From the IMG/VR virus record IMGVR_UViG_3300043436_000696: 64,000 nt of DNA; one strand, written 5' to 3'. The translations under genes and the position numbers were made by a program. Source of the stretch: an uncultured virus (IMG/VR IMGVR_UViG_3300043436_000696) (Duplodnaviria; Heunggongvirae; Uroviricota; Caudoviricetes). Positions 3,001 to 60,965 of this stretch are shown piece by piece; the first letter of the stretch is position 1, and each line of letters begins with the position of its first letter. Below the pieces are notes generated by a model. The model saw only the letters and a list, made by a program, of their open reading frames with translations, searched no databases and was not told the DNA's origin.

Positions 3001-4055
3001 CAGGACTTAGTTTCTTTACATCTCCAAGACAATTTTTAGATTTAGAAGTACAAACTGAATTACTTTCAGGAATGTTACATCATCAAAGAGTTACTCAAAC
3101 TATAAATGGTGTTCCTACTGAACTTAAATACATAGATGCTTGGGAAATACGTAATGGACAAATAGAACTTAAAGAAGGTATAGATAAGGAATGGGCTCAG
3201 GGAGGTAAGAAATTTAATGAATTTAAGAATAGATCTCATGAGTTAAATAATAGACTAGTTGGTACTTATGCTAAAATAGATCAACCAGAAGTAATGAGAT
3301 ATGCTTTGGGTAGAGCTGTTTTCTTTTTAAAGAGATTCTTTTTTTCTATGTTCATGAATAGATTTGCTACTACAAGAACTAGTAATGCTTTAGGTACAGT
3401 TAGTACAGGTTATTATACTAGTACTCTTTTTGCTGCTGCTAAATTACTTAGGACTAGAAGTATTGGAGCTATAACTAGTGAAGAAAAAACTAATGCTAAA
3501 AAGTTTGTAGCAGATGCTGCTTTACAAATGTTTATGTCATTCTTACTAGTTAATCTATTTAAGTGGTATGGAGCAGAAGATCCTGATAAGTATGATAGAA
3601 TGAAAGAACGTAGTGGAGCTCTTAATGAAGATGACTTTGACTTAACTGGATGGTTATTTAACCATACTCTAGTAGCTACTATGGCGACATTACTTGAAAC
3701 TGAAACTTTTGGAGTTCTTAATCCTGTAGAATATAATGCTAAAAAAGGTGAATGGAATTTTAGCTATGGTCGTAGAACAGTAAAACAATTAACTAATACA
3801 GGTAAGAGTATGGCTGATCCACTTGGCTTATGGAATACTTCTTACCAAAAAATGGTTGATGCTTATAGTAATTTTGCTTTATATTTAGAAGATAAACCTA
3901 ACGCCTATTGGAAAAAAGATACTGGTCCTTATTGGTTCCAGAAAGCAGATCAGCCTAAGTTCTGGAAAGATATCTTCTCTATCTTTGGCATCACTGGAAC
4001 TCAAGTGAGTCCAGTGGAAGCCGCAGAAAAGGAAGCATATAAACAAAGAAGGTAA
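3..4055 (+). CDS. Giant virion-associated protein, C-terminal part (5' truncated by window edge)
   Basis: Frame is open from base 3 to the stop at 4055 (>1350 aa), predicted helical with hydrophobic C-terminal segments. Size and position resemble the large ejected/cargo proteins of crAss-like phages. No RNAP catalytic motif seen in this part. Confidence 0.6.
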   Translation, partial: LAAGLKYSIDQSSRAISKIYANALDDVMLEHLKPLAEEIDRYYSDIIKQLTDKNQKQSEIDRVQKKWDAHRLTKERVNDLLTGNAKDTNIFSSFLESYANSPDPIIGGFTMFLKSAYNDVDAESLRLTNEMAIELAPLLDAVGYSNTDFSKTMKELVYEENKPYVDPKDGLMKTRKVFAFKSMFKDHLVQLGSLKHDYNVAIASGDQILADQKLKEIREHKKDYFHQEYVNEYYDREQIYNSEVGKEAYRKKYELLNEIKNLTDQEYDPDHIDEILTQKKILWRRYSQLASLTDENGNPKVGIDLEIAQIERQYRKESRKFFEWLPTNKFESTLRRMEQNLVDEGISPDSPEFKQARDKWIKENTVIAYTPQFFEERNQIISDLKDFMAKLPKATQDLVDSSGEMENMLDLSVGFRDQDGQIIGGDFSQTSKDKIKAYQKSIQDKRKSLYNGLTDDEQSELDSLFTRKDFAIGKRLSPEDDARLSELIDKGISLRINVLQKAELATLYQRLSEIQSKEATDYYADIVNNYLDQMGEKPFDENNENSIDSLLDPSNYVRLFSKSPAFEKWFKDNHITKEVYDRDSGEVITKYERLFIWNRNRPNNEEHYEKITLSDGEQILGKPSLSYFFRSVKKEYRTKKVVGETVDNRGNFLPKTIEQGAKDDKYYNYEYTKLQRENPNAFALMEKLKEIHLKNQALFPRESRLYLEIPRYGKENLEYLQGTSVSKETNKFKEWFTGLKESVLGAADDAELAGFNFDASKLMYTDVFGEDIHKVPITGMYALETSQVSLNIIDGIKRYTKSGLKQRKLIELNPFAQALQNVTAETIPKGDKGSARAAATIGKFFRGKQKTTRGKSIRNIIQREFQGVHTNSWIGRSSLPYVGKVSNLAPFIQKSLNRAGAIGSFGIFAANVLPSAVKNRFGALVQNLIESSGGRFLTLRSYHQGKFRALKMIMAHTTSLYETGPKSLDGQLMLLFDPGQGIFENFVKQQFGRSLAGDAAGLSFFTSPRQFLDLEVQTELLSGMLHHQRVTQTINGVPTELKYIDAWEIRNGQIELKEGIDKEWAQGGKKFNEFKNRSHELNNRLVGTYAKIDQPEVMRYALGRAVFFLKRFFFSMFMNRFATTRTSNALGTVSTGYYTSTLFAAAKLLRTRSIGAITSEEKTNAKKFVADAALQMFMSFLLVNLFKWYGAEDPDKYDRMKERSGALNEDDFDLTGWLFNHTLVATMATLLETETFGVLNPVEYNAKKGEWNFSYGRRTVKQLTNTGKSMADPLGLWNTSYQKMVDAYSNFALYLEDKPNAYWKKDTGPYWFQKADQPKFWKDIFSIFGITGTQVSPVEAAEKEAYKQRR

Positions 4056-4671: not shown

Positions 4672-4844
4672 TCTATATTAAGTGCTGATTCTTTAGATTT
4701 TCTTATTATCAATCTGATACCTTTACATTTAAATCTTCTAACAGCTCGTTTAATAATTCTTTTTACATAAAGATCTTCTATATGAGTAGAATTTATTCTA
4801 TTAACCATAGAATAAATTCTATTGACCATCTGTTCTTTTTTCAT
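4662..4844 (-). CDS. Small basic hypothetical protein
   Basis: 60-aa ORF overlapping both neighbours in the operon. Confidence 0.5.
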   Translation of the reverse strand: MKKEQMVNRIYSMVNRINSTHIEDLYVKRIIKRAVRRFKCKGIRLIIRKSKESALNIDWL

Positions 4845-39175: not shown

Positions 39176-39229
39176 ATAAGGTTGGTTTTAAAATAAAAAA
39201 GGCCTATGTATAAACATAGACCAGTTTAG

Positions 39230-39579
39230 TGGAGCCGAGGGGAGTTGAACCCCTGTCCAAACAAGCGTCAATAATACCATTCTTACATGCTTAGATCTGC
39301 AAGCTGATCAGTAGTTGGGATCGTCTGGGTGACTAATCTACCACCACTCTGTTTTATGACTACAGAGAAAACGCTTGTAACTTTCTGTTGCTAGGTTGTT
39401 ACCACCCCGTGGGTTAGGCAGCAATTGCTACTTCACCGAAGATAGAAGCTAAGATAGCTTCACCTTCTGCCACACGCTCAGATGTACTCTTTACGGTTAT
39501 TGTTTAGAACTTGTTTACCCGTTCCAGGGCTTGCATGTGATACTATCCCCATCATGTCTGTCAAAGCCAATACGGCCCC
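39230..39579 (-). ncRNA. ssrA: tmRNA
   Basis: 5' GGGGCCGTATTGGCTTTGAC and 3' GACAGGGGTTCAACTCCCCTCGGCTCCA form the acceptor stem with a G3.U wobble and a T-arm. Internal tag ORF 39494-39414 ends ...AIAA*. Terminator-like hairpin at about 39195-39222. Confidence 0.93.
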
Positions 39580-43855: not shown

Positions 43856-44017
43856 TTAGAAAATGTTGTCTCTTTTTTTCTTTTTAACGTTTATTTCTAT
43901 GATAAACGGACCAAAAGCCATGAATATGTCTTCTCCATCATAAGCTGAGCCTATGAGTAGGGCATTGGTCATTAGCCCTAGTTTGAATCTTTTGTAGCGG
44001 ATAAGCGTCTTTTCCAT
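43856..44017 (-). CDS. Small hypothetical protein (53 aa)
   Basis: Hand-translated MEKTLIRYKRFKLG...RDNIF. Confidence 0.55.
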   Translation of the reverse strand: MEKTLIRYKRFKLGLMTNALLIGSAYDGEDIFMAFGPFIIEINVKKKKRDNIF

Positions 44018-44045
44018 GTGAGGAATTGTTTTGTGGGTTTGTAAA

Positions 44046-44222
44046 TTAGTTTCTCCATAGGTTAACTCTACCTACAACGCATCTATATTGTTTTGGTGCT
44101 TTGTACTTTTTGTAGGGATTATGAGAATAATGAAGGGTTGAGCAAGATGATAGGAACATGATTACTACTATAACAGCAGCAAACCATAGTAATACTTGTA
44201 AAACGTAATCTGGCTTTTTCAT
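44046..44222 (-). CDS. Small lipoprotein (58 aa)
   Basis: Hand-translated MKKPDYVLQVLLWFAAVIVVIMFLSSC...; lipobox LSSC. Confidence 0.6.
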   Translation of the reverse strand: MKKPDYVLQVLLWFAAVIVVIMFLSSCSTLHYSHNPYKKYKAPKQYRCVVGRVNLWRN

Positions 44223-44307
44223 ATATAAATGAATTGGTTAATGAATAAGGTATGTGTGGCACCCATTGACATATCGTCTCCGGGTCACCATCCACATAAT
44301 TTCTTTG

Positions 44308-44457
44308 TTAGTAGCTAATAGATACAGCTACATAAGGACTGGTCCTAAATCTCTTTAAGAACTCTAGACGTAGAGAGATAAATCTCTTTGCCATCTTCAT
44401 GTACCATTCCGTGAAGGATTGATAGGTACGAAACACTAGGTTTTTAATTCTTTTCAT
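44308..44457 (-). CDS. Small basic hypothetical protein (49 aa)
   Basis: Hand-translated MKRIKNLVFRTYQSF... Confidence 0.4.
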   Translation of the reverse strand: MKRIKNLVFRTYQSFTEWYMKMAKRFISLRLEFLKRFRTSPYVAVSISY

Positions 44458-44855
44458 GTGTGATGTTGTATTGGTGAATGTATAAATAGTGAGGGCTCAT
44501 GTATGAGCTACTATCATAGTATTAATATATTAACTATACTATGATTAGGGCTCACTGGTGAGCTGTCAGAAAGTTTAGAGTGCCCACATAGAAATGCAGG
44601 CACTTTGGGTTTGTCCGCCCTATGAAATATATTATAGCCATATTATCCGCAGGTAAGTGGCTGATTTAGAGCTACTTGAATACATGATAAAAATGGGGAG
44701 TGTGTTCCTATCTCACACATCTTTACACACATCTGATTGAAAATCAGGGAGTTAGTGTGGGTGAGTCCCGCTGAAAGCGGGCAGATAGTTAGAAACTATG
44801 CCGTCAGAGACGGTGCCTTGGGAAGGCAGCTCTCGTGGAGAGCCATTATATATAG

Positions 44856-44890
44856 AAAAAAAAATCCTACACCGGATTAGGGTGTAGGAT
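44856..44890 (-). terminator. Rho-independent terminator
   Basis: ATCCTACACC-ctaatcc-GGTGTAGGAT followed by a T run on the minus strand. Confidence 0.8.
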
Positions 44891-44899
44891 AAGTCTAGG

Positions 44900-45229
44900 C
44901 TATTCAGCACTAGACGCAGTAGCCTTCTGCATAAGCACGAGCTTTGCAACGTCTGGGCCAAACTGCTCTACTAATGATTGTAGTTTGGACAGTTCAGTAT
45001 CATCAGCAACAACTTGGTTGTTAGAAGTGATGATTAAGTTAACGGAGTCTCCCGTATAACGAGTGGTGAACCACAATGGTTTACCGGTGTTTTCGTCTAA
45101 ACGGAAACTGTCACCTTGGGCTTCTTCATAAGCTTTAAGGTCTTGTTCATTACCACTAACGGTAAATCTAAATACTTTGGTACCGGTGTTTGCTTTACGG
45201 TAAGAACCGTTTAATTTAGCTGTTAACAT
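44900..45229 (-). CDS. Hypothetical early protein
   Basis: Start adjusted to MLTAK; ACCCCTGA motif upstream and terminator downstream. Confidence 0.7.
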   Translation of the reverse strand: MLTAKLNGSYRKANTGTKVFRFTVSGNEQDLKAYEEAQGDSFRLDENTGKPLWFTTRYTGDSVNLIITSNNQVVADDTELSKLQSLVEQFGPDVAKLVLMQKATASSAE

Positions 45230-45692
45230 GTTTAACTTGTTTAAAATTATATAATATAATACCAACTTTCAATCAGGGGTTAAAGAGAGCATAATAACAG
45301 CCGAAGGCTGCGTAGTATGTCTATGCAGGTGGTAAAAGAAGCAAGACGGTTAAGCCTTGCTTCTTAATGCTCATTTGGGGGTAATGAGACTTTATTGGGT
45401 AGTTATTTACTAACTATATGTAAGTCAGGGGTTAATGAGAGGGTGAGTATTCTGCGTTAGCAGAGACAGCCGCAGGCTGCTAGAAAGTAAAAGAAACAGG
45501 AGAAATAATAAACTCCTGTTTCTGTATACTGTGCAATACATCCTTTTTTAAGACCTGAGTTTATTAAACTCTCAGTAGGTAGATGGTTGGGTCATGACTC
45601 CCACTGATTGCGGCTTGGGACTTTCGTCTATTTAAAATCAGGGGTTATTAGACAAAAAAATAAAAGAGAAGCTGTTAAGCTTCCCTTAAATG

Positions 45693-45941
45693 TTACTTGT
45701 TGTGTATTCTACACGTAGTGCTGTCCTTACCAACAGTCATCATGCACGGCTTACCTGCCTTTGTCTTGGCAGAGCAATGTACTCTGTTAGGATTGTGGGC
45801 ATTACAGTAGCCTGTCTTTGAGTCTACGATAATAGACTTACATGGCTTACCTGCTTTTGTGGTCCCTTTACAAGGAGTTGTGCCAGCGTAGCTGCTAATA
45901 GACAATGTAATAACTGTCAAGAGTAATAATAAATGTTTCAT
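45693..45941 (-). CDS. Secreted protein with two CX3TKAGKPC...CXXH repeats
   Basis: Signal peptide (SYA/G); CKGTTKAGKPC...CNAH and CSAKTKAGKPC...CRIH. Confidence 0.75.
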   Translation of the reverse strand: MKHLLLLLTVITLSISSYAGTTPCKGTTKAGKPCKSIIVDSKTGYCNAHNPNRVHCSAKTKAGKPCMMTVGKDSTTCRIHNK

Positions 45942-46022
45942 ATAATTATATTTTAATATAATATCAGGGGTAATACTCTACAAAATATAGCAGACTGCTT
46001 GTTAGGCAATCTGCTATATGTA

Positions 46023-46334
46023 TTACAGGCATATGTAATCCGGTACTTCTTTGGCGTACTTTTTGGTTACACGCTCATGCATAATAGAGGCAAGTATGTC
46101 GTTAAGTAGCTCTCTATACATGTTATGCACTATGTAATCAGTAGTGGTCCAACTAATAGCAACGCAGTTATTCTTATGGTTGCTAATAATTACAGGGTGT
46201 TGTGCCACAGCGGAGTTCCACATTCTCTCAAATGTGGTGCTGTCTGCTTTAACACGGATTTTACCACTGTAAACGGTAACTGTGCCAATAGTGAAGTAGT
46301 TGTAGCCGTAAGGCTGTTTAATTTGGTTACGCAT
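46023..46334 (-). CDS. Hypothetical early protein
   Basis: Motif 23 nt upstream; hairpin at 45985-46019 downstream. Confidence 0.7.
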   Translation of the reverse strand: MRNQIKQPYGYNYFTIGTVTVYSGKIRVKADSTTFERMWNSAVAQHPVIISNHKNNCVAISWTTTDYIVHNMYRELLNDILASIMHERVTKKYAKEVPDYICL

Positions 46335-46400
46335 AATAAATTATTTTATTATGTAATCAGGGGTATATTCTACGTAAGTTAGAAAAAAATAACCAACCCA

Positions 46401-46640
46401 CTATTTAGTAGGTTGATTACGTAATAAGTCAAGCTTGTTTTGTAGTTCAGCCAAGTTTCTACTTGGTGCTACATACTCTGCTTCAAAGATGATATGCCCA
46501 GACTTGGTAGTAAAGTGTGAGCCGTATTCAGCTATCTCTGCTTTAAGGAACTTTTCCTTAGTAAAGCGTAGCTTGATACATACTGTATTACCTTCAAATC
46601 TGATACCAAATGGTTTCTTGTTTACATTCATGTTAGTCAT
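46401..46640 (-). CDS. Hypothetical early protein
   Basis: Start adjusted to MTNMN to fit the 22-nt motif spacing. Confidence 0.7.
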   Translation of the reverse strand: MTNMNVNKKPFGIRFEGNTVCIKLRFTKEKFLKAEIAEYGSHFTTKSGHIIFEAEYVAPSRNLAELQNKLDLLRNQPTK

Positions 46641-46693
46641 AATATTTATTTTTAAATACAATCAGGGGTTGATCTCTTTGTTAAAAGAACCTG

Positions 46694-46909
46694 CTATTTA
46701 GCAGGCTCCTTTACTTTTAATTCATCTAATACCATACCTATTAGGCATAACCATATGAACCAGTAGATTATACCAACACCCCAGAATGCGTTACTATGAA
46801 ATACATCATAGACGTCAAAGCTGAAAGCTGTCATAATCCATCCAATCCATACTGCTAAGAATGGTACTAACATAGTTACTGTGAATACACTCATTTTAAT
46901 CTTTTTCAT
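46694..46909 (-). CDS. Two-TM early membrane protein
   Basis: Two hydrophobic helices; motif 23 nt upstream. Confidence 0.7.
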   Translation of the reverse strand: MKKIKMSVFTVTMLVPFLAVWIGWIMTAFSFDVYDVFHSNAFWGVGIIYWFIWLCLIGMVLDELKVKEPAK

Positions 46910-46959
46910 AATATATTATTTTATAATACAATCAGGGGTAAATTCTAACTTAATGACTA

Positions 46960-47238
46960 CTACTTTTCAGTAGTAATCGTTAAGTCTTCATCATATGCCC
47001 ACTTACCAGTAGCTAGGCTATTACCTATCTCTTCACCATACATGTGGTCTAATCCCTTCTCATCTTCAAAGAGAATAGTGTATGTAGGTCTACCCTCTAC
47101 TGTATCAGATGGGATAATCAACATAGATCCAGGTGTATTGTGTGCACACACAGGTTCATTAGTACAGCTGTAAGCTAAAACAGCTATTACAACTAATACT
47201 GTAAAAATCTCAGGAATAAAGTACTTTAAGTTTTTCAT
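46960..47238 (-). CDS. Early lipoprotein
   Basis: Lipobox AYSC; motif 22 nt upstream. Confidence 0.7.
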   Translation of the reverse strand: MKNLKYFIPEIFTVLVVIAVLAYSCTNEPVCAHNTPGSMLIIPSDTVEGRPTYTILFEDEKGLDHMYGEEIGNSLATGKWAYDEDLTITTEK

Positions 47239-47289
47239 AATATATATTTTATATATACATCAGGGGTAGAATACTACATGATAATCCCC

Positions 47290-47487
47290 CTAGAAAGGGA
47301 GATCATCATCAACTTCTACAGTCTCTACACTACTACTAATAGGCAATATAATATTCTTTTCTTCCACCTCCTGATAGTATGCTTCTTCTTCCAATCTACA
47401 ATTCATACAAGTATGTGATGGTTCCCACTGATTCTCATCAGGTAAGTAGTATGCTGGTGTACACGTACATTCATTAATCTTTTCCAT
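47290..47487 (-). CDS. Small Cys-rich acidic protein with SSB-like tail (DDDLPF)
   Basis: CTC...CMNC and C-terminal EVDDDLPF; motif 22 nt upstream. Confidence 0.7.
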   Translation of the reverse strand: MEKINECTCTPAYYLPDENQWEPSHTCMNCRLEEEAYYQEVEEKNIILPISSSVETVEVDDDLPF

Positions 47488-47714
47488 AGTATTTATTTTT
47501 AATGTACGTCAGGGGTTTCTTCCTCTCTCCCCACAGCTCATAGGGGTACACACCCAATTTCTTTCTGCCGGGGGGATTTTTCTCTAAAGGTAACGCCACC
47601 GCATAACACGGAGTAAAATTTTATGGGTAGAAAAAAATTGTACACCCATGGGGATATCTTTTCATGGAGTTACGTATTATATAATATTAAATTTGTGTAG
47701 TTTAAACTTTTTAA

Positions 47715-47730
47715 GTATATTATAATGTAA
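47715..47730 (+). promoter_or_regulatory. Putative late promoter
   Basis: GTATATTATAATGTAA at the start of the late block. Confidence 0.55.
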
Positions 47731-47740
47731 ACCAACTGTT

Positions 47741-47962
47741 ATGAGTAAGAAAAAATACGTAGAAGGAGAAACCTCTAGTCATTATATACAGACTAAGGAT
47801 AGTTATGGTAGACCCGTTAATATTCCCGTTGTGGATGTAAGGGATGGTATTGGGGAAAGGATGTTAGCCATGGCTATTATGAAGGCTACTAATAGAAGTA
47901 AGTATATCACTTACAATGAGTACCATGTATCTAGGAAACCAGTTAATAACTTAAGTGAGTAG
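47741..47962 (+). CDS. Hypothetical protein
   Basis: 73-aa ORF with AAACCAACTGTT leader. Confidence 0.55.
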   Translation: MSKKKYVEGETSSHYIQTKDSYGRPVNIPVVDVRDGIGERMLAMAIMKATNRSKYITYNEYHVSRKPVNNLSE

Positions 47963-47966
47963 TAAT

Positions 47967-48275
47967 ATGAATCTACACGAATGTAATATACATTGTCATA
48001 CGATACATCCCGACCAAATGGATCTTCTTAATATAGATGATGACCAGGGTAAGTGGATGCCGTTTATATTTGATCTAGATATAGTGGTTGCAGCTAAACA
48101 GACGTCAGAAGACGAAGAAGAGTTAGTATATAACGCTACCACTATTTTCACTGACCACGGGGATACGTACATTATAGACACTCCCTATCACGAATTCTTT
48201 AAATTATGGAGATCTCATATTGACCCGACCAGTGGTAGACTTTCTACTAATGGTACAGGGGATTTAGAGTTTTAA
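47967..48275 (+). CDS. Hypothetical protein
   Basis: About 102-aa acidic ORF (ATG at 47967; alternative GTG at 47955). Confidence 0.65.
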   Translation: MNLHECNIHCHTIHPDQMDLLNIDDDQGKWMPFIFDLDIVVAAKQTSEDEEELVYNATTIFTDHGDTYIIDTPYHEFFKLWRSHIDPTSGRLSTNGTGDLEF

Positions 48276-51969: not shown

Positions 51970-52478
51970 TAAGACTATTTGATATACAGAACGGACAAGT
52001 AACTGCAAGTGAGCATTGTTATACACTTAAGTTTCTTAAGAATATAATGACTGAGTATCCTTTAGAATATTTAAAGGTTTACACTTACTTATTTTATATG
52101 ACTTGTCCTAACCCAGATATAAATCCATTCTTTCATTTTCCAGAGAGTGAAAAGGAAGAAGTTATATTAGAAGAGGTGGATGGAGACTTTTCTCCTGAAG
52201 ATGACGCTATAGTGTATGCATTACAGAGATGTAAGCAAATGTATGAGACAGAAACATCTAGAGCATATTATGGAATTAAGACAGCTTTGGATAATCTAGG
52301 AAAGGTATTAGCCACAGAAACTCCTACATTTGGTAGAGATGGATCAGCTGTAGGTATTCTTAGAATAGCAGAAAGATTTGATTCTGTAAGACAATCTTAT
52401 AAAGGAGTATATAAAGATTTAATGGATGAACAACAGTCTTCTGTAAGAGGAGGACAAGACTTAGCATATGATCAATAA
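51966..52478 (+). CDS. Conserved protein upstream of TerL (possible small terminase)
   Basis: Position and size; C-terminal VRGG..LAYDQ. Confidence 0.5.
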   Translation: MIRLFDIQNGQVTASEHCYTLKFLKNIMTEYPLEYLKVYTYLFYMTCPNPDINPFFHFPESEKEEVILEEVDGDFSPEDDAIVYALQRCKQMYETETSRAYYGIKTALDNLGKVLATETPTFGRDGSAVGILRIAERFDSVRQSYKGVYKDLMDEQQSSVRGGQDLAYDQ

Positions 52479-52578
52479 TGTAGGGTGGTGAAACTGGCAG
52501 ACACGCTACCTTGTCTCGGTAGTGTTTAGTTTTGTAAATAAAAAACTAGATATGGAGGTTCAAATCCTTCCCCTACAG
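52479..52578 (+). tRNA. Atypical tRNA, anticodon GTC (Asp-reading) on a Leu/Ser-like class II body
   Basis: TGTAGGG/CCCTACA acceptor + G73; D region GTGGTGAAACTGGCAGACAC; CTACC-TTGTCTC-GGTAG; 31-nt variable arm; GGAGG-TTCAAAT-CCTTC T-arm. Confidence 0.8.
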
Positions 52579-52592
52579 CTTAATTAAAAATT

Positions 52593-52877
52593 ATGAAAAC
52601 AGAAGTTTACACAGATTTAGAAATCAAAGAGTTTGCCGCTATTGGTGAAGAGTTAAGACCAGAATCAGATTACATGAATGATTGGGTATTTCATTTTAAC
52701 CCTTACAATCAGTTATGGAATGCTATTCCAAGAAACGTTTGTAATGAGTATTGGAGTAATAGTCAGCATCATGCTGTATTAAGAAGCAAACATTTAAACA
52801 CACTATTAGACATGCTTCACCGTACAAAAGGTGATACAGGAATGATAGAAGATCTTACACGTGGAGAAATTAGATAA
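52593..52877 (+). CDS. Hypothetical protein
   Basis: WVFHFNPY..LWNAIPR motif. Confidence 0.7.
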   Translation: MKTEVYTDLEIKEFAAIGEELRPESDYMNDWVFHFNPYNQLWNAIPRNVCNEYWSNSQHHAVLRSKHLNTLLDMLHRTKGDTGMIEDLTRGEIR

Positions 52878-55080
52878 TAACCATACAATATATAAAGAAG
52901 TACCCACTTATAAAGATGGGTCTTGGGATACTACCGTGTTTTACTCACGTGAAGAATTCCGAGATTTTCTTATTCCTTTATTTAAGGAACCTGGTCAATA
53001 TGAGTTTGATGAGGTGAGTACAATATTTAATGCTGAAGGACGTAAGTTTCAGAAACAAGGTTATTATTGTGCAGCTCCTGTAAAGACTAAAGACTTTATT
53101 AAATACTGGGATGATCAAAAAGCTAAATGCCGTAATGGTATTATAGTATATAATGGAGAAAAGACATGGTATGTGTCTAGAGATTATTACATGTGGTTAA
53201 ACTTTCTTCCTATTTATGATAAGGAAGAAAAACGTTTTGACTTTGCTAAGATAAGAGATGCTCAGTATCACATGGCTCTTTATGAACATCTTGCAGAATT
53301 ACATTGGAAGCATGCTATTATTTTAAAGAAACGTCAGATAGCTTCTTCATACTTTCACATGGCTAAGTTAATTAACCAATGGGTATTTGAAGCAGGTGCT
53401 GTACTAAAAATAGGTGCTAGTCTTAAAGATTATATTAATGAAAAAGGTTCTTGGAAGTTTTTAGAAGAATATAAAAACTTTATTAATCAGCATACAGCGT
53501 GGTATAGACCGGCTGAGCCAGATAAAGTTGGAGCATGGAACCAGCAAATTAAAGTGAGAATAGCAGGTAGAGATACTTATAGAGGATTAAAATCTAGTAT
53601 TAACTCATATTCATTTGAAAAGAATCCTACAAATGGTGTCGGTGGTCCTGTAACTTATTTTTTTCACGAGGAAGCAGGTATTGCTCCAAGTATGCATGAT
53701 ACATATGGATTCATGAAACCAGCATTAAAGTCTGGTCATATGATTACAGGTCAGTTTATTGCTGCAGGATCAGTCGGTGATCTTGATCAGTGTGAACCTT
53801 TAAAACTTTATATAGAAAAACCAGAAGAAAATGGATTCTATGGAGTTAAGTCTGATCTTATAGATAAGAATGGTACAATTGGAATAACAGGATTATTTAT
53901 TCCTGAACAATGGTCAATGCCTCCATATATAGATCAATATGGTAACTCTCTTGTAGAAGAAGCATTAGAAGCTTTAGAAAAAGAGTTTATTCAGTTAAAG
54001 AAAGATCTTGAACCGGCAGCATATCAACTTGAAGTATCTCAGCATCCTCGTACTATAGAAGAAGCGTTTGCTACTAGAAAACTTTCTATATTTGCTCCTC
54101 ACTTAATTGCCAAGCAGCAACAACGTATTCAGGATAAAGAATATCCTGTAGAATATCTTGAATTATCTAGAGATAGTGAAGGTAAAATTATAGATAAACC
54201 TTCTAGAAAGATTCCTATTACAGAATGGCCTATATCTAAAAGAACAGAAGATAAAGAGGGAGTGTTGTGTATCTATGAAAGACCTGTAAAAGATCCTACC
54301 TTTGGTATGTATTATGGCTCTGTTGACCCTGTAGGTGAGGGTAAGACCACTACATCAGATTCATTATGTGCCATTTATATTTATAAGAATCCTGTAGAGG
54401 TTATAAAAGATGATGGAAATGGTAAAGTGACTAACACAATAGAAAGAGATAAGATAGTAGCTAGTTGGTGTGGACGTTTTGATGATATTAACAAAACACA
54501 TGAAAGATTAGAACTTCTTATAGAATGGTATAATGCTTGGACTATTGTGGAGAATAACGTAGCTTTGTTTATACAATACATGATTAGTAAGAAAAAACAA
54601 AGATATTTAGTTCCTAAAGACATGATCTTATTCTTAAAAGATATAGGAGCTAACCGCAATGTATTCCAAGAATACGGTTGGAAGAACGTTGGTACGTTAT
54701 TTAAAGGAACTGTCTTATCTTATGCTATTGAATTTTTAAAAGAAGAGCTTGATCATGAGACAACTCCTGATGGAACTATCGTAAAAACTATATATGGCGT
54801 AGAAAGAATTCCTGATCCAATGCTTTTAAAAGAGATGCAAGCTTACCAAGATGGTGTCAACGTGGATAGACTTGTAGCTTTTTCAGCTTTGATAGCCTTT
54901 GCAAAGGTTCAACAATCTAATAGAGGACTGGTTAAACGTGTAGAAGTTAGCAAAGAAAACTTGGATAACTCCCAAAAATTTAGTAAATTAAATTGGAGCC
55001 CCTTTAGACATATGGGTGGTTCTAAAAGAGGGTCAGGAAATAGTCAACCTCCTAGAAATCCTTTTAAAAATATGAGATAA
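52861..55080 (+). CDS. terL: Terminase large subunit
   Basis: LKKRQIASSY Walker A, FFHEEAG Walker B, nuclease GSVDPV...SDS, IVENN, NVDRLVA. Confidence 0.92.
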   Translation: MEKLDNNHTIYKEVPTYKDGSWDTTVFYSREEFRDFLIPLFKEPGQYEFDEVSTIFNAEGRKFQKQGYYCAAPVKTKDFIKYWDDQKAKCRNGIIVYNGEKTWYVSRDYYMWLNFLPIYDKEEKRFDFAKIRDAQYHMALYEHLAELHWKHAIILKKRQIASSYFHMAKLINQWVFEAGAVLKIGASLKDYINEKGSWKFLEEYKNFINQHTAWYRPAEPDKVGAWNQQIKVRIAGRDTYRGLKSSINSYSFEKNPTNGVGGPVTYFFHEEAGIAPSMHDTYGFMKPALKSGHMITGQFIAAGSVGDLDQCEPLKLYIEKPEENGFYGVKSDLIDKNGTIGITGLFIPEQWSMPPYIDQYGNSLVEEALEALEKEFIQLKKDLEPAAYQLEVSQHPRTIEEAFATRKLSIFAPHLIAKQQQRIQDKEYPVEYLELSRDSEGKIIDKPSRKIPITEWPISKRTEDKEGVLCIYERPVKDPTFGMYYGSVDPVGEGKTTTSDSLCAIYIYKNPVEVIKDDGNGKVTNTIERDKIVASWCGRFDDINKTHERLELLIEWYNAWTIVENNVALFIQYMISKKKQRYLVPKDMILFLKDIGANRNVFQEYGWKNVGTLFKGTVLSYAIEFLKEELDHETTPDGTIVKTIYGVERIPDPMLLKEMQAYQDGVNVDRLVAFSALIAFAKVQQSNRGLVKRVEVSKENLDNSQKFSKLNWSPFRHMGGSKRGSGNSQPPRNPFKNMR

Positions 55081-55170: not shown

Positions 55171-57915
55171 ATGCAAGTATATAATGCTCTAGACCTAAAA
55201 GCGGGTAAAAAAGCTGATTATAATAAGATGGGTACTCTTACCCAGCCTATTCAGTTTTTACCTGAAAAAGAAAAAGATGATGAATGGAGAGCTTGGAACC
55301 TAGATTGGCTAGAGTTTCAGGGTATGAAACAACTTAGACGTAATGCTCGTAGACTTATGAAGAACTATAATCTTGCAAAAGGGATTATAGATAAACAAGA
55401 CTATATCATAGAAGAAGATAATGAAGTGGCTGATCTTATAGATACTTTGACTAAACAAGACGAATCTGCTTTAGAACTTAAGTTTTACCCTATTATTCCT
55501 AATGTAATCAATGTACTTACTAATGAATTTAGTAAACGTACTTCTAAGATTATGTTTAGAGCTATTGACGACATTTCTTATAATGAAATGTTAGAGGAAA
55601 AGCGTCAAATGGTAGAAGATGTTCTATTACAACAAGCTCAGCAGAAGATGTTTATGAACCTTGTTAATCAAGGAATGGACCCTGAATCAGAAGAAGCTCA
55701 ACAAATGCTATCTCCTGATAGTCTTAGAAGTCTTCCTGAAATTGAAGATTATTTTAAGAAAGACTACAGATCTATGATTGAAGAGTGGGCTACCCATCAG
55801 ATGAAGGTAGACACTGAAAAGTTTGGATTACAAGAATTAGAAGAGCGTGCATTTAGAGACATGCTTATTACAGATAGAGAATTCTGGCATTTTAAGATGA
55901 ATGAAGATGATTATGAGGTGGAGTTATGGAACCCACTTTTGACATTCTATCATAAGTCTCCAGATGTACGTTACATTTCTCAGGGTAACTGGGTAGGTAA
56001 AATGGATATGATGTCTGTATCAGACGTTATTGACAAGTTTGGTTGGATGATGAATCAAGAGCAGTTAGAAGCTCTAGAAGCTATCTATCCTGTAAGATCT
56101 GCGGGTTATGCTATCCAAGGTATGCAAAATGATGGTAGTTACTATGATCCTACCAGATCTCATGATTGGAATACTCAGATGCCAAGTCTTGGATATAGAC
56201 AATTTGCATCTATTTATGATAGTAAATTTGGTACAGGAGATATAGTTGAGTGGATCTTATCTGATTCAGAAGATACTATTGACTTTGGTAAAACTCATTT
56301 ATTGCGTGTATCTACAATCTATTGGAAGTCTCAACGTAAGGTGGGACACTTAACTAAGATTACAGAAGAAGGAGAAATTATTCAAGATATTATATCTGAA
56401 GAATATAAGGTTACTGATAAACCTCAATATAACACTGTTGTATATAAACAAAAATCTAAGGATAACTTAATTTTTGGAGAGCATATTGACTGGATTTGGA
56501 TTAACGAAACTTGGGGTGGTATTAAGATTGGACCTAACCGTCCTGCATTCTGGGGTATGAATAATCCAGGAGGTATTAACCCAATATATTTAGGTCTTAA
56601 TGGTGGTAAGCCAGGTAAGGTTCCTTTCCAATTTAAAGGTGATAGTACATTATATGGATGTAAACTTCCTGTAGAAGGAGCTGTATTTGGTGATAGAAAC
56701 ACTCGTAGTATTTCTTTAGTGGATCTTATGAAGCCTTATCAGATTGGTTATAATATTGTAAATAACCAAATAGCTGACATCCTTGTAGATGAATTAGGTA
56801 CAGTGATCATGCTAGATCAGAATTCTTTACCACGTCACTCTATGGGAGAAGATTGGGGTAAGAATAACTTATCTAAAGCCTACGTGGCTATGAAGAACTT
56901 CCAGATGTTACCATTAGATACTTCTATTACTAACACTGAGAATGCTCTTAACTTCCAACACTACCAAGTATTAAACTTAGAACAAACTAACCGTTTGCTT
57001 TCTCGTATCAATCTTGCTACATATTTTAAGAATCAAGCGTTTGAAGTGATTGGTTTGAACCAACAACGTATGGGTCAACAGATTGCTCAACAACAGACTG
57101 CTACAGGGGTAGAGCAAGCTATGAATGCTTCTTATGCACAGACAGAGCAGTATTTTATACAACATAGTGATTACTTGATGCCAAGAGTTCACCAAATGAG
57201 AACTGACTTAGCTCAATATTATCATTCTAAAAAGCCGTCTTTAAGACTTCAATATATTACAGGTAATGATGAAAAGATTAATTTCCAGATAAATGGAACA
57301 GATCTTTTAATGAGAGACTTTAATATATTCTGTACTACTAAGACTAATCAAAGATCTGTAATGGAGCAATTACGCCAGATTGCTGTTAATAATAATACAA
57401 CTGGAGCTTCTATATTTGATTTAGGAAACGTTATTAAAGCTGAGTCTATTGCTGAGTTAACTGGTGTTCTTAAGAATGCTGAAGAAAAAGCTAATGCTCT
57501 TAAGCAACAAGAACAAGAGGCTCAACAGAAAATGCAGGAAGAAATGCTTGCTTCTCAAGAGCGTCAGAAACAAATGGATCTTCAGTTTAAAGCTGAACAA
57601 GCTGACCTTGATAGACAAAATAATATTACTCTTGCTGAAATTAGATCAGCAGGTTATGGTGCTATGATGGATATTGACAAGAACCAAGTGTCTGACTATC
57701 AAGATGTTTTAGCTAATATTCAGAAGCAGCAAAGTTATCAAGATACAATGAGTTTTAAACGTGAGCAGGAAGTAAATAAGAACGCTACTAATGCTCAGAA
57801 ATTAGATATTGAGCGTCAGAAGTTACAAACTCAGAAAGAGATTGCTGATAAACAATTACAGATAGCTAAAGAAAATAAGAACAAATATGATGTTGGAGCT
57901 AAGAAGAAGAAATAA
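55171..57915 (+). CDS. Portal protein
   Basis: 914 aa immediately after TerL; FYPIIPNVIN.L..E, SLVDLMKPYQ..YN, Q/E-rich C-terminal coiled coil. Confidence 0.88.
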   Translation: MQVYNALDLKAGKKADYNKMGTLTQPIQFLPEKEKDDEWRAWNLDWLEFQGMKQLRRNARRLMKNYNLAKGIIDKQDYIIEEDNEVADLIDTLTKQDESALELKFYPIIPNVINVLTNEFSKRTSKIMFRAIDDISYNEMLEEKRQMVEDVLLQQAQQKMFMNLVNQGMDPESEEAQQMLSPDSLRSLPEIEDYFKKDYRSMIEEWATHQMKVDTEKFGLQELEERAFRDMLITDREFWHFKMNEDDYEVELWNPLLTFYHKSPDVRYISQGNWVGKMDMMSVSDVIDKFGWMMNQEQLEALEAIYPVRSAGYAIQGMQNDGSYYDPTRSHDWNTQMPSLGYRQFASIYDSKFGTGDIVEWILSDSEDTIDFGKTHLLRVSTIYWKSQRKVGHLTKITEEGEIIQDIISEEYKVTDKPQYNTVVYKQKSKDNLIFGEHIDWIWINETWGGIKIGPNRPAFWGMNNPGGINPIYLGLNGGKPGKVPFQFKGDSTLYGCKLPVEGAVFGDRNTRSISLVDLMKPYQIGYNIVNNQIADILVDELGTVIMLDQNSLPRHSMGEDWGKNNLSKAYVAMKNFQMLPLDTSITNTENALNFQHYQVLNLEQTNRLLSRINLATYFKNQAFEVIGLNQQRMGQQIAQQQTATGVEQAMNASYAQTEQYFIQHSDYLMPRVHQMRTDLAQYYHSKKPSLRLQYITGNDEKINFQINGTDLLMRDFNIFCTTKTNQRSVMEQLRQIAVNNNTTGASIFDLGNVIKAESIAELTGVLKNAEEKANALKQQEQEAQQKMQEEMLASQERQKQMDLQFKAEQADLDRQNNITLAEIRSAGYGAMMDIDKNQVSDYQDVLANIQKQQSYQDTMSFKREQEVNKNATNAQKLDIERQKLQTQKEIADKQLQIAKENKNKYDVGAKKKK

Positions 57916-59345: not shown

Positions 59346-60965
59346 ATGGCAACTCCAGTTTTGAACAATGGTATATTTCTACGTGATACCAGTTATCAAA
59401 CAAGTTCACACGTAGATTCGTATCACCTTTCAAACTTACTGAAGTCAGCTGAACCTACAGACTTAGGTCCTGTAGATTTATGGGCTATGGCACAAAAAGT
59501 AGAAATGCCTTTGTACCAGATGTCTAGCTTCGGTGGTAAGAACGTTATCTCTGTAGATAATGCTCGTGGTGAGTACAAATGGCAGATCCCTGTAACTCAG
59601 GACTTGCCTTATATCGTGGAAGATATTGAATCAGCAAACCAAACTAAAGGTGTTGATGGTCAATCTTTCAAGATTAAATTGAATAAGCGTTCTTTTGGTC
59701 ATGGTGATATCATCACTTATGACAAGTACAATGGTGTTGAAATGTACATCACTGCTGACGATATTATCCCAGCTGGTGACGGTTTCATCTACACTGTACA
59801 ATTGGTAAACAACGACAACGCTAAGTACTTGGATAACAAATACTTAAAAGTTGGTACTAAAGTTTTCCGTAAAGGTTCTGCAAGAGGTGAATACGGTGAA
59901 AGATTCTCTGACATCGGTAACGTAAATGCAGGTTTCCGTGAATTCTACAACTATGTAGGTGGTGCTGAAGCTCACGTTCATTATTCTGTAAGCTCTAGAG
60001 CTGACTTGATGATGAAAGGTGGTATGAAAGCTGATGGTACAGTTCCTGTAGTTGAGCTTTGGAGAAACTTTGACAAGAGCGTAGATCCTTCTATTTCTAA
60101 CTTAGAAGACATGGCTTCTAAAATGGGTAAAGATTATGTAAAGAAAGCTTACCAATCTGGTCAGTTAACTCGTACATTCTTAACTACAATGGAAGCAGCT
60201 CATTTGAGCAAGATTGCTAATGACATTGAGACTTACTTAATGTGGGGTCAAGGTGGTAAAGTTAAGCAAGATGGTCCAGATGACATCAGATTGTCTGTAG
60301 GTTTATGGAAGCAGTTAGATAACTCTTACAAGCGTATTTACAACAAAGGTTCTTTCAACTTAGATTTGTTCAAGTCTGAAATCTTCAACTTCTTCAATGG
60401 TAAGGTTGAATTCCAAGGACCAGATCCTAAGCGTCAGTTGGTTGTACAAACTGGTTTAGGTGGTATGAAGTTGGTAAATGAAGCTATTAAGCGTGAAGCT
60501 ATCAACTCTGGTTTAGTAATCAATGCTTCTGAAATTGGTGCTATCACTGGTAAAGGTATGGACTTAAACTTTGGTTTTGCATACACTCAATACGTTATTC
60601 CTTTCTTAGCTAACGTTAAGTTTGTATTGAACCCAGCGTTTGATAACATCCACACTAATGACATTGAGAACCCAATCATTGATGGTTTCCCATTAAGTTC
60701 TTACAATTTCATTATCTTTGATATTACAGATAACACTAACGATAACATCTACTTGTTAAAGTTAAGTTGGGACAACCAATTAAAGTGGTTCTATCAAAAC
60801 GGTACAATGGATTACATGGGACGTACACAAGGATTCCAGTCTTCTGGAAACTTCAACGGATACCGTGTATTCATGACACAAACAATGCCAGCTATTTGGG
60901 TTAAAGATCCAACTAAGGTATTGAAGATCGTTATGAGAAACCCTGTAACTGGTGGCTCATTCTAG
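59346..60965 (+). CDS. Major capsid protein
   Basis: 539 aa, position after portal and scaffold, visibly biased codon use (C-ending codons), GLWKQL segment. Confidence 0.85.
   Translation: MATPVLNNGIFLRDTSYQTSSHVDSYHLSNLLKSAEPTDLGPVDLWAMAQKVEMPLYQMSSFGGKNVISVDNARGEYKWQIPVTQDLPYIVEDIESANQTKGVDGQSFKIKLNKRSFGHGDIITYDKYNGVEMYITADDIIPAGDGFIYTVQLVNNDNAKYLDNKYLKVGTKVFRKGSARGEYGERFSDIGNVNAGFREFYNYVGGAEAHVHYSVSSRADLMMKGGMKADGTVPVVELWRNFDKSVDPSISNLEDMASKMGKDYVKKAYQSGQLTRTFLTTMEAAHLSKIANDIETYLMWGQGGKVKQDGPDDIRLSVGLWKQLDNSYKRIYNKGSFNLDLFKSEIFNFFNGKVEFQGPDPKRQLVVQTGLGGMKLVNEAIKREAINSGLVINASEIGAITGKGMDLNFGFAYTQYVIPFLANVKFVLNPAFDNIHTNDIENPIIDGFPLSSYNFIIFDITDNTNDNIYLLKLSWDNQLKWFYQNGTMDYMGRTQGFQSSGNFNGYRVFMTQTMPAIWVKDPTKVLKIVMRNPVTGGSF

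What the first reader, a model, noticed from the sequence alone, without database searches (positions are those of the whole stretch)
45485..45645. Non-coding early transcription unit 1 (promoter motif + structured RNA + terminator)
The ACCCCTGA copy at 45638-45645 is not followed by a usable ORF (only a 7-codon one). About 140 nt follow, with stems TCCCA/TGGGA and ACCT..GAGTTT/AAACTC..AGGT, closed by the terminator AGAAACAGGAG/CTCCTGTTTCT-TTT. It has the same architecture as the neighbouring protein cassettes, so it looks like a deliberately expressed early small RNA. Possible roles (inference): decoy for a host defence protein, or antisense regulator.
Basis: partly seen in the sequence, partly recalled or inferred. 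Interest (0 to 1): 0.7.

Follow-up and report, generated by a model that had tools for sequence, protein, structure and literature searches.

The report
Conserved structured small RNA cassette in phage
An ORF-less promoter-to-terminator cassette among the first genes of a crAss-like aquatic phage carries a ~80-nt folded RNA domain that is almost identical in very distant phages, so it is probably a functional phage RNA of a family not yet described.

Summary
ACCCCTGA occurs 9 times in the window, all on the minus strand within 45273-47516 (0.75 expected). Seven copies precede ORFs. The copy at 45638-45645 precedes only a 7-codon ORF and a strong terminator hairpin (45523-45492).

The core of the unit (45611-45533, minus strand) is a conserved RNA domain. 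It recurs once per genome in 11 distinct phage or metagenome sequences. It matches a complete phage (G003) at 77 of 78 nt, although that phage's terminase and DNA polymerase are only 32-35% identical in protein.

Comparative folding gives a three-way junction. The closing stem P1 and the distal hairpin show compensatory changes; two inner helices and the loops never vary. No Rfam family, tRNA or bacterial genome copy matches.

In other lineages the same domain sits at the tip of a variable arm of a larger conserved "scaffold" RNA. Only in the window's lineage is it a separate promoter-plus-terminator unit.

Transcription, timing and function are not shown. I found no antisense target in the window. 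My best reading is a trans-acting, probably protein-binding, early small RNA. A cis-acting leader element is the main rival.

The parts
45638..45645 (-). ACCCCTGA promoter-like motif of unit 1. It is one of 9 same-strand copies; the others are at 45273, 45425, 45964, 46357, 46662, 46932, 47260 and 47509.
   Evidence: One search gives 9 matches against 0.75 expected. The placement after terminator hairpins and 21-22 nt before ATGs is read. The promoter function is an inference.
45612..45637 (-). Leader of unit 1.
   Evidence: The leader is conserved only in close relatives and is replaced in L023.
45533..45611 (-). Conserved RNA domain (the 'module'), a three-way junction.
- P1: 45611-45607 with 45537-45533.
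- P2: 45603-45600 with 45591-45588, loop AGUCAUGA at 45599-45592.
- P4: 45585-45581 with 45543-45539.
- P3a: 45580-45577 with 45556-45553.
- P3b: 45571-45566 with 45562-45557.
- A-rich 9-nt strand: 45552-45544.
   Evidence: Ten distinct homologues were aligned (A3). RNAalifold gives this consensus. Pair counts are 92.1% paired against 21-40% when slid, with 6 pairs changed on both sides. Model R1 scores the window copy at 105.6 bits.
45572..45595 (-). 7-codon ORF (MTQPSTY) lying inside the module. Its ATG sits in the P2 loop.
   Evidence: Only the first 6 codons are shared by homologues, and they lie in the invariant nucleotides. The ORF ends differently in L004, L017 and L003. It is judged not to be the function.
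45489..45523 (-). Intrinsic-terminator-like hairpin with an 11-bp stem, a 10-nt loop and a T-run.
   Evidence: Its arms are the same in L004 and L023 (the L004 and L023 loops have one more T), although L023 has about 90 extra nt between module and terminator.
45664..45687 (-). Terminator of the preceding 82-aa zinc-finger gene. It marks the upstream boundary of unit 1.
   Evidence: 10-bp stem plus T-run. Pfam zf-primase match for the 82-aa ORF.
45281..45432 (-). Neighbouring ORF-less unit 2. It has the motif at 45432-45425, three hairpins and the terminator-like stem GAAGCAAG/CTTGCTTC. It is listed as context, not as part of unit 1.
   Evidence: z -5.3. It is conserved only in close relatives. 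L023 has different content at this position.

Best explanation
Unit 1 is a genuine non-coding gene cassette of a crAss-like (Crassvirales-related) aquatic phage. It most likely yields a small RNA of about 140-150 nt. The RNA would start shortly after the ACCCCTGA motif and end at the hairpin at 45523-45489.

Its functional part is a ~79-nt three-way-junction domain (45611-45533). A closing stem can have any sequence as long as it pairs. The internal loops and two inner helices are sequence-invariant, and the distal hairpin is variable but always paired.

The domain is portable. In other phage lineages it is plugged into the tip of a variable arm of a larger conserved scaffold RNA, or it follows that scaffold as a second stem unit. 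It appears to have been exchanged between very distant phages.

Shown: the anatomy, the conservation, the covariation, the strand, and the absence from known families and from the bacterial genomes searched.

Inferred:
- It is transcribed early, from the motif.
- It acts in trans through its invariant loops. The likeliest mode is binding a host or phage protein as a decoy, sponge or cofactor.
- It may pair with itself through the self-complementary UCAUGA in the P2 loop, rather than work by antisense pairing.
For: Cassette:
- The motif is enriched and on one strand only.
- Its placement matches that in 7 protein cassettes.
- A strong terminator follows.
- The same motif-module-terminator unit occurs in three arrangements: the window type (window, L018, L019, L021), the L004 type (L004, L020), and L023.

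Conservation:
- An 18-mer from the core found 5 true copies among 8 viral-contig hits.
- A 20-mer found 8 of 8 true copies in metagenome contigs.
- This gives 11 distinct sequences. A 31-nt stretch is invariant in 9 of the 10 aligned sequences; L020 has one change.
- A 3.9-kb query matched complete genome G003 only over 78 nt at 99%, and G002 only over 78 nt at 87%.
- Terminase is 32% and DNA polymerase 34-35% identical in protein to those two genomes.
- There is one copy per genome in G002, G003, G004 and G006.

Structure:
- RNAalifold gives P1, P2, P4 and P3.
- 92.1% of cells pair, against 21-40% with slid partners.
- Five P1 pairs and one P3b pair change on both sides.
- 0 of 500 shuffles reach the covariation score, and 8 of 500 reach the count of pairs changed on both sides.
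- P1 has a different sequence in four contexts but always pairs.

Strand:
- G-U pairs would be A-C on the other strand. They occur at P4 in 9 of 10 sequences, and in P3b and P1.
- The orientation matches the neighbouring genes in every locus I read.

Not a known family:
- Rfam gives nothing at gathering or E-value thresholds.
- ARAGORN gives nothing.

Not from a host:
- The 19-mer hit 3 bacterial MAG contigs, and none fits model R1.
- 0 of 151 sampled genomes of one phylum match.

Precedent:
- The crAss-like phage phi14:2 makes two abundant non-coding RNAs from intergenic regions at the start of its early region. This comes from bioRxiv 10.1101/2020.03.07.982082; I read section 4 and matched passages.
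Against: - There is no transcript evidence. The four public runs gave only assembled contigs of relatives, which cannot show starts, ends or strand.
- The promoter role of ACCCCTGA is unproven. No RNA polymerase gene and no DFDxD motif were found in the window.
- The module alone is not unusually stable (z -1.9).
- The window's own minimum-energy fold (-18.8) uses a different central pairing from the consensus (-14.1). That alternative pairing is broken in 5 of the 10 homologues.
- P2 and P4 never vary, so they have no covariation support.
- The 10 sequences come from only four or five lineages, so the shuffle statistics overstate significance.
- In G002, G003, G004 and L025 the module has no promoter motif or terminator of its own. 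There it could act in cis.
Confidence: 0.6

Rival explanations
1. The module is a cis-acting RNA element of the early leader. Candidates are a processing or stability signal, a polymerase-modifying (antitermination-type) element, or a ligand-sensing aptamer coupled to the terminator. On this reading the window's unit is such an element that happens to lie between two promoters.
For: In G002, G003, G004 and L025 the module is embedded in a non-coding region of 0.9-1.2 kb with no motif or terminator of its own. A three-way junction with invariant junction and loop nucleotides, followed about 10 nt later by a terminator, looks like a riboswitch layout.
Against: In the window the terminator is followed by another copy of the promoter motif, so there is nothing obvious to regulate. 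I saw no alternative anti-terminator pairing by inspection. L023 has about 90 nt inserted between module and terminator, which does not suit a coupled expression platform. No riboswitch or leader family in Rfam matches.
Confidence: 0.2
2. The conserved stretch works as DNA. It could be a protein-binding site (the near-palindrome around GTCATGAC), a recombination hot spot, or a small mobile element whose terminal inverted repeats imitate a stem.
For: The P2 region contains an 8-bp perfect palindrome. The element is nearly identical in very distant genomes and sits in different contexts.
Against: The flanking inverted repeats differ in sequence between contexts yet keep pairing, unlike transposon ends. 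The P3b hairpin also shows a compensatory change. G-U pairs make the structure strand-specific. There is one copy per genome and no direct-repeat flanks.
Confidence: 0.07
3. The unit expresses the tiny peptide MTQPSTY, and the RNA structure is incidental.
For: The ATG lies 42 nt after the motif, close to the 43 nt of the 109-aa gene. A GGGAG lies just upstream. The one substitution in L020 is synonymous.
Against: The peptide ends differently or runs on in L004, L017 and L003. The 16 nt before the ATG are just as invariant as the codons. The GGGAG-to-ATG spacer is 2 nt. The other cassettes have no such purine-rich stretch before their ATGs.
Confidence: 0.05
4. The unit is a decayed protein cassette with no function.
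For: It has the same frame of motif and terminator as its protein-coding neighbours.
Against: The core is 77 of 78 nt identical to that of a phage whose core proteins are about 33% identical, and it shows compensatory changes.
Confidence: 0.03

Closest known systems
Early long non-coding RNAs of the crAss-like Cellulophaga phage phi14:2 (g004-g005 and g005-g006 intergenic regions). Source: bioRxiv 10.1101/2020.03.07.982082; I read section 4 and matched passages.
   Same: Both are non-coding regions at the very start of the early gene block of a crAss-like phage and lie on the early strand. In phi14:2 they are highly expressed from the first time point. Their function is unknown.
   Different: No sequence similarity was found. 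The paper reports no common motif upstream of phi14:2 early transcripts, whereas this phage has a clear repeated motif. The unit here is short and terminator-bounded.
phi29-type packaging RNA (pRNA). Its properties are recalled from general knowledge; its presence in the Rfam library is also recalled.
   Same: Both are small phage RNAs made from an early promoter near a genome end. Both are built on a three-way junction and have loops that could pair between molecules.
   Different: No Rfam match of any kind was found for the unit. The phage type and host phylum are unrelated. Nothing links this RNA to packaging.
Phage-encoded decoy or regulatory small RNAs, such as RNA anti-CRISPRs and prophage sRNA sponges. 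Recalled; the review PMC12197685 was seen only in a search listing.
   Same: These too are stand-alone promoter-RNA-terminator genes among early or accessory genes. They are patchily distributed and exchanged between phages.
   Different: RNA anti-CRISPRs are defined by their likeness to a host CRISPR repeat. The host here is unknown, so this cannot be tested. No host-like copy was found, and no antisense target was found in the window.
Large ornate phage-associated RNAs that often lie next to tRNA genes (GOLLD, ROOL). Recalled.
   Same: In other lineages the module is part of a long, conserved, structured non-coding region, which lies next to tRNA-like genes in some of the loci read.
   Different: No Rfam match was found. 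The conserved scaffold core seen here is only about 70 nt plus a variable arm.
Transcription-terminating riboswitches (general class).
   Same: Both have a junction-type fold with invariant unpaired nucleotides and covarying stems, followed closely by an intrinsic terminator.
   Different: No known class matches. No gene is under the terminator's control. The terminator is absent from the other contexts of the module.

Membership tests
Any Rfam 15 family | Covariance-model score at or near the family's gathering threshold | tested here: not met
   At the gathering threshold the window gave only a tmRNA and a tRNA, both elsewhere. In E-value mode on 44700-46000 the best match was E 0.38, on the neighbouring terminator. 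Related loci carrying the module and the scaffold gave nothing there.
tRNA / tmRNA / tRNA-like | Cloverleaf or tRNA-like domain detectable by ARAGORN or by the Rfam tRNA model | tested here: not met
   ARAGORN found only the tmRNA at 39229-39579. The Rfam tRNA model did not match the unit.
Stand-alone phage small-RNA gene (generic kind) | Own promoter | tested here: inconclusive
   The motif is enriched, on one strand, and placed as in 7 protein cassettes. No transcription-start data exist and no polymerase has been identified.
Stand-alone phage small-RNA gene (generic kind) | Own intrinsic terminator and no ORF | tested here: met
   There is an 11-bp hairpin followed by a T-run. The only ORFs are one of 7 codons and a 38-aa ORF that crosses the terminator.
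Stand-alone phage small-RNA gene (generic kind) | A discrete transcript is observed | not testable with these tools
   The public runs held only contigs of relatives.
Conserved structured RNA (general criterion) | Compensatory base changes that keep helices across homologues | tested here: met
   Six pairs change on both sides (five in P1, one in P3b). 92.1% of cells pair, against 21-40% when slid. P2 and P4 never vary, so they are uninformative.
phi14:2-type early lncRNA | Sequence or structure homology to the phi14:2 intergenic RNAs | tested here: not met
   There was no blastn match in the phage collection with the window region or with the scaffold region. The phi14:2 record itself was not aligned separately.
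RNA anti-CRISPR | Resemblance to the CRISPR repeat of the host | not testable with these tools
   The host is unknown. The only related results are negative: no copy in bacterial genomes by 19-mer, and none in 151 sampled genomes by model R1.
Antisense regulator of phage genes | Extended complementarity to another transcript of the phage | tested here: not met
   In the RNAduplex scan of the invariant 30 nt against both strands of the window, the best non-self duplex was -28.9 kcal/mol. The best values from 15 shuffled queries ranged from -24.7 to -33.0. Host targets could not be tested.
Scaffold RNA of related phages (new family, model R2) | P0, hairpin Pa and the conserved base of P1 | tested here: not met
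   R2 finds the scaffold in L016 (103 bits) and L003 (76 bits). It finds nothing at E<=5 in the window, L004, L018 or L023. The window carries the module but not the scaffold.

The most novel reading that the evidence does not exclude
The module is a self-contained RNA 'effector domain' that phages trade horizontally. It can be expressed alone, as in this window, or displayed on the variable arm of a conserved scaffold RNA whose arm carries different cargo domains in different phages. That would amount to a modular, RNA-based accessory system, for example a set of decoys or sponges for host defence or host RNA-binding proteins. The self-complementary UCAUGA loop would allow dimer or higher-order assembly.
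Probability: 0.2. Interest if true: 0.85.

Novelty: new variant of a known kind. Interest (0 to 1): 0.6.

Why it matters
Non-coding RNAs of lytic phages are few and mostly unexplained. For crAss-like phages, the only report I found notes abundant early non-coding RNAs of unknown function.

This finding gives a compact, alignable RNA domain with a testable secondary structure and sequence-invariant loops that probably mark a binding surface. It also shows signs of exchange between phages whose core proteins are only about a third identical. That pattern is typical of accessory or counter-defence genes, but here the gene product is RNA.

The domain occurs both as a stand-alone cassette and as cargo on a conserved scaffold RNA, which offers a natural experiment on how phage RNAs are built from modules. 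If a cultured host-phage pair can be found, the ~79-nt size makes probing, pull-down and structural work straightforward.

Tried and rejected
Expression:
- Laying them gave only contigs of relatives at 85-99% likeness, with similar depth over coding and non-coding parts. This says nothing about transcription.
- In X3 and X4, which belong to one study, a contig joins 45512 to 45635 with 116 other letters between. This may be a diverged or a different insert. The letters were not available to me.

Known families and phage collections:
- Rfam was searched four times with no match.
- ARAGORN found nothing in the unit.
- blastn of 44000-48000 and of the G003 non-coding region against the phage collection found no match.

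Host origin:
- The 19-mer in bacterial genomes gave 3 chance hits that do not fit model R1.
- R1 matched 0 of 151 sampled genomes of the phylum of one of those MAGs.

More distant homologues:
- A pattern that left the P2 loop free gave 13 loci. Five were already known, and the 8 new ones did not fit R1 (best E 0.17).
- A pattern for the 3' half gave 2 known loci and 1 chance hit.
- A terminator 17-mer was too unspecific. It gave at least 118 hits, and only 1 of the 80 fetched had the full hairpin, a known contig.
- The upstream terminator 20-mer found only the two known contigs.

Other checks:
- The antisense scan inside the window was at chance level.
- No DFDxD motif occurs in any frame, and PHROG and Pfam scans found no RNA polymerase. 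The polymerase that would read the motif is therefore unidentified.
- The 1350-aa ORF at 3-4055 has no match in the phage collection, PHROGs or Pfam.

Literature:
- A full-text search for the motif together with 'bacteriophage' and 'promoter' returned only unrelated papers among the 10 listed of 19.
- Searches for crAss-like non-coding RNAs returned only the phi14:2 preprint as relevant. One search was uninformative.
- Supplements of that preprint are closed and may hold the lncRNA coordinates.

Earlier notes of this scan: none exist for this genome or this sequence.

Full report
**What the window is**

The 64-kb window is phage DNA with about 32-35% G+C. It encodes several phage hallmark proteins:
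- a large terminase at 52861-55080;
- a portal protein at 55171-57915;
- a major head protein at 59346-60965;
- a DNA polymerase, helicases, a primase and an endolysin.

The terminase is only about 25% identical to those of Crassvirales from gut samples and of Flavobacterium and Cellulophaga phages. I therefore treat it as a distant crAss-like phage, probably of a Bacteroidota host. The host is an inference.

Genes to the right of about 47740 run rightward and include the structural genes. Genes to the left run leftward. The finding lies in the first 2.3 kb of the leftward block.

**The observation**

ACCCCTGA occurs 9 times, always on the minus strand and always between 45273 and 47516. Chance would give 0.75, and 0 of 100 shuffles reached 9. 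One-mismatch variants are at chance level (21 found, 22.95 expected).

Reading the sequence, seven copies precede ATG ORFs:
- Six ORFs, of 65, 92, 71, 79, 103 and 82 aa, start 21-22 nt after the motif.
- The seventh, the 109-aa ORF, starts 43 nt after the motif.

Most copies follow a hairpin plus T-run. Two copies, at 45645->45638 and 45432->45425, have no such ORF.

After the first of these two copies come:
- a 26-nt leader;
- a structured stretch;
- an 11-bp hairpin with a 10-nt loop and a T-run (45523->45489).

The only reading frames are a 7-codon ORF (45595->45572) and a 38-aa frame that crosses the terminator.

The unit folds at -40.2 kcal/mol (z -4.4).

**Relatives**

Neighbouring proteins led to close relatives. 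These are contigs behind L001/L004 and L002/L005, which are 91% identical across the non-coding units. They also led to a more distant relative, L003 (G004), where the 109-aa protein is 61% identical.

In L003 the cassette motif reads ACCCTTGA and sits in the same places.

A 78-nt stretch of unit 1 is 87% identical in L003. There it lies about 800 nt downstream of the 109-aa gene, inside a long non-coding region.

Exact-word scans with the invariant core gave:
- 5 true copies among 8 viral-contig hits; the other 3 are chance matches that score poorly with the later model;
- 8 of 8 true copies in metagenome contigs.

Together with the window this makes 11 distinct sequences.

**How conserved it is**

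Two carriers, G002 and G003, are complete genomes of 111 and 115 kb with terminal repeats. Their proteins are far from the window's:
- terminase 32% identical;
- DNA polymerase 34-35% identical.

A 3.9-kb query from the window matched G003 only over these 78 nt, at 99%. It matched G002 only over the same 78 nt, at 87%.

G003's copy is closer to the window's than to that of its own near relative G002, although G002 and G003 share identical flanks. This points to exchange of the element between lineages, to very strong selection on its sequence, or to both.

Each genome holds one copy. This is true of G002, G003, G004 and G006. None was found in G005, which is a 44%-complete fragment.

**Structure**

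I aligned 10 of the 11 distinct copies. L021 was left out because it is identical to the window over these columns.

RNAalifold predicts a three-way junction:
- P1, a closing stem;
- P2, UGGG/CCCA with the loop AGUCAUGA;
- P4, CAUCU/GGAUG, which stacks on P3;
- P3, ACCU/AGGU plus a 6-bp hairpin;
- a 9-nt A-rich strand opposite.

With P1 extended to 10 pairs, the pair counts are as follows:

| Measure | Result |
|---|---|
| Cells that form a standard pair | 92.1% |
| Same, with 3' partners slid by 1-3 columns | 21-40% |
| Pairs changed on both sides | 6 (5 in P1, 1 in P3b) |
| Shuffles reaching the covariation score | 0 of 500 |
| Shuffles reaching the count of pairs changed on both sides | 8 of 500 |

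P1 reads GCAAU/AUUGC in the window, GUAAU/AUUAC in G002 and G003, GUGAU/AUUAC in G004, and GUGAU/AUCAC in L025.

G-U pairs would be A-C mismatches on the opposite strand, so the structure belongs to the strand of the early genes. They occur in P4 in 9 of 10 sequences, and also in P3b and P1.

Caveats:
- P2 and P4 never vary, so they carry no covariation evidence.
- The sequences represent only four or five lineages.
- The module alone is not unusually stable (z -1.9, 10 of 200 shuffles).
- The window's own minimum-energy fold (-18.8 kcal/mol) uses a different central pairing from the consensus (-14.1). That alternative needs a CUACUGA that is changed, without compensation, in 5 of the 10 homologues.

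**Context in other phages**

The sequence flanking the module in G002 and G003 turned out to be conserved by itself. A 20-mer from it occurs in 17 viral contigs. With L025 these give 15 distinct sequences that all fold alike:
- a 5-bp stem P0;
- a hairpin, CAGCUU-CCCAA-GGGCUG;
- a long stem, P1, whose base is conserved and whose apex is a variable insert of 25-95 nt.

One P0 pair is U-A in 9 and C-G in 5 of the 14 aligned sequences. None is unpaired. L054 was left out because it is cut by the contig end; by eye it is C-G.

The unit-1 module takes different positions:
- In G002 and G003 it is the apex insert.
- In G004 and L025 it follows the scaffold as a second stem unit.
- In the window lineage there is no scaffold at all. 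Model R2 finds nothing at E<=5 in the window, L004, L018 or L023, but scores 103 and 76 bits in L016 and L003.

In the window lineage the module stands between a motif copy and a terminator. It does so in three arrangements: the window type, the L004 type, and L023. In L023 the unit follows the 103-aa gene directly and has about 90 extra nt before a terminator whose arms are the same.

The sequence after P1 in the window (AGUAUACAGA...) resembles the scaffold tail (AGUACAGAGGG). This suggests the stand-alone unit derives from a scaffold-borne copy, which is an inference.

**What it is not**

- No Rfam family matches the unit, the module or the scaffold.
- ARAGORN finds no tRNA-like gene there.
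- The phage collection holds nothing similar.
- The invariant 19-mer occurs in 3 bacterial MAG contigs, and none fits model R1.
- 0 of 151 sampled genomes of one phylum match.
- A duplex scan of the invariant 30 nt against both strands of the window gave a best non-self energy of -28.9 kcal/mol. That lies inside the range of 15 shuffled queries, -24.7 to -33.0. I therefore see no antisense target in the phage DNA at hand.

The 7-codon ORF is unlikely to be the point:
- The peptide ends differently in L004, L017 and L003.
- The nucleotides before the ATG are as invariant as the codons.
- The purine-rich GGGAG stands only 2 nt from the ATG.

**How it most likely works**

Shown:
- an ORF-less cassette;
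- a conserved, strand-specific, covarying RNA fold with invariant loops;
- portability between contexts and between distant phages;
- no relation to known families.

Inferred:
- The motif is a promoter, perhaps for a phage-supplied polymerase. It does not resemble the host-type promoter elements I recall for Bacteroidota. No polymerase gene is in the window.
- The RNA is made early.
- It acts in trans.

Three features fit an RNA that is recognised by a protein, as decoy, sponge or cofactor, better than an antisense RNA:
- invariant loop and junction sequences combined with free-to-vary stems;
- patchy distribution;
- signs of horizontal exchange.

The P2 loop carries the self-complementary hexamer UCAUGA. 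That would allow loop-loop dimers, but an 8-nt loop holds such a hexamer by chance about 5% of the time (my arithmetic).

The main rival is a cis-acting role in the early leader, because most other carriers lack a promoter motif or terminator next to the module.

**Comparison and novelty**

The nearest described case by context is the pair of abundant early non-coding RNAs of the crAss-like phage phi14:2. Their function is unknown (bioRxiv 10.1101/2020.03.07.982082, section 4 and passages). I found no sequence relation to them.

By form it recalls phage small RNAs built on three-way junctions, and riboswitch-like aptamers, but it meets no family's test.

I rate it as a new variant of a known kind: a phage-encoded structured small RNA belonging to a new family. 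What is unusual is that the same domain occurs both alone and as cargo on a conserved scaffold RNA.

**Verdict**

- Observation: confirmed.
- Interpretation: partly supported.
- Interest: 0.6.

Noticed in passing
L047-L063, L025, L016:3941-4074, L003:4995-5096: A conserved 'scaffold' RNA occurs in 15 distinct phage sequences. It has a stem P0, a hairpin CAGCUU-CCCAA-GGGCUG, and a long stem whose apex is a variable insert of 25-95 nt. One P0 pair switches U-A to C-G with no unpaired case. It is not in Rfam, it is absent from the window, and tRNA-like genes lie downstream of it in some loci.
   Followed up: partly
window 45281-45432 (-): This is a second ORF-less cassette (unit 2). It has the motif at 45432-45425, three hairpins, and z -5.3. 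It is conserved only in close relatives, and L023 has different content at this place.
   Followed up: partly
window 45297-45311 and 45464-45478 (-); L003:3887-3901; L023:1576-1590: The hairpin GCAGCCTTCGGCTGT (GCAGCCTGCGGCTGT in its second window copy) lies about 15-45 nt upstream of the next motif copy. It is kept before the 109-aa gene in the window, L003 and L023, although the sequence around it differs.
   Followed up: no
window 39227-39579 (-): The phage encodes a tmRNA. Rfam scores it at 91 bits, and ARAGORN gives a tag peptide ending in AIAA. It lies on the same strand as the early genes.
   Followed up: no
window 52479-52578 (+): Rfam reports a 100-nt match to the tRNA model (41 bits) right after the ORF that ends at 52478. 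ARAGORN did not call it. It may have an insert or a long arm.
   Followed up: no
L003 (G004) 3360-3370, 3800-3810, 3930-3940: In this relative (terminase 81% identical) the cassette motif reads ACCCTTGA instead of ACCCCTGA and sits at the same positions relative to the genes. This fits co-variation of a promoter with its polymerase.
   Followed up: no
window 44632-44650 (-); L003 about 4722-4745; L007 about 3539-3560: A short motif, GCGGATAA-AT-GCTATAA, recurs in the non-coding stretch after the 109-aa gene region in three lineages. I saw it by eye.
   Followed up: no
window 44460-44860 (-): A stretch of about 400 nt after the 109-aa gene has no credible ORF. It has unusually high G+C and reversed GC skew for this region and several hairpins, including TGCCTT-CCC-AAGGCA. 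It does not match scaffold model R2.
   Followed up: partly
window 45513-45634, in runs X3 and X4: Contigs of relatives join 45512 to 45635 with 116 other letters between. The same promoter and terminator flanks may therefore enclose a different or strongly diverged insert in some strains. The letters could not be seen.
   Followed up: no
L016:4167-4239 (+): A tRNA-like gene (Rfam 44 bits, not called by ARAGORN) lies about 100 nt downstream of the module in complete genome G003, inside the same non-coding region of about 870 nt.
   Followed up: no
window 44308-44457 (-) and L003:4468-4620: A 49-50-aa ORF ending in ISY is shared by the window and L003. It is a small conserved early protein set among the non-coding stretches. 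I saw this by eye.
   Followed up: no
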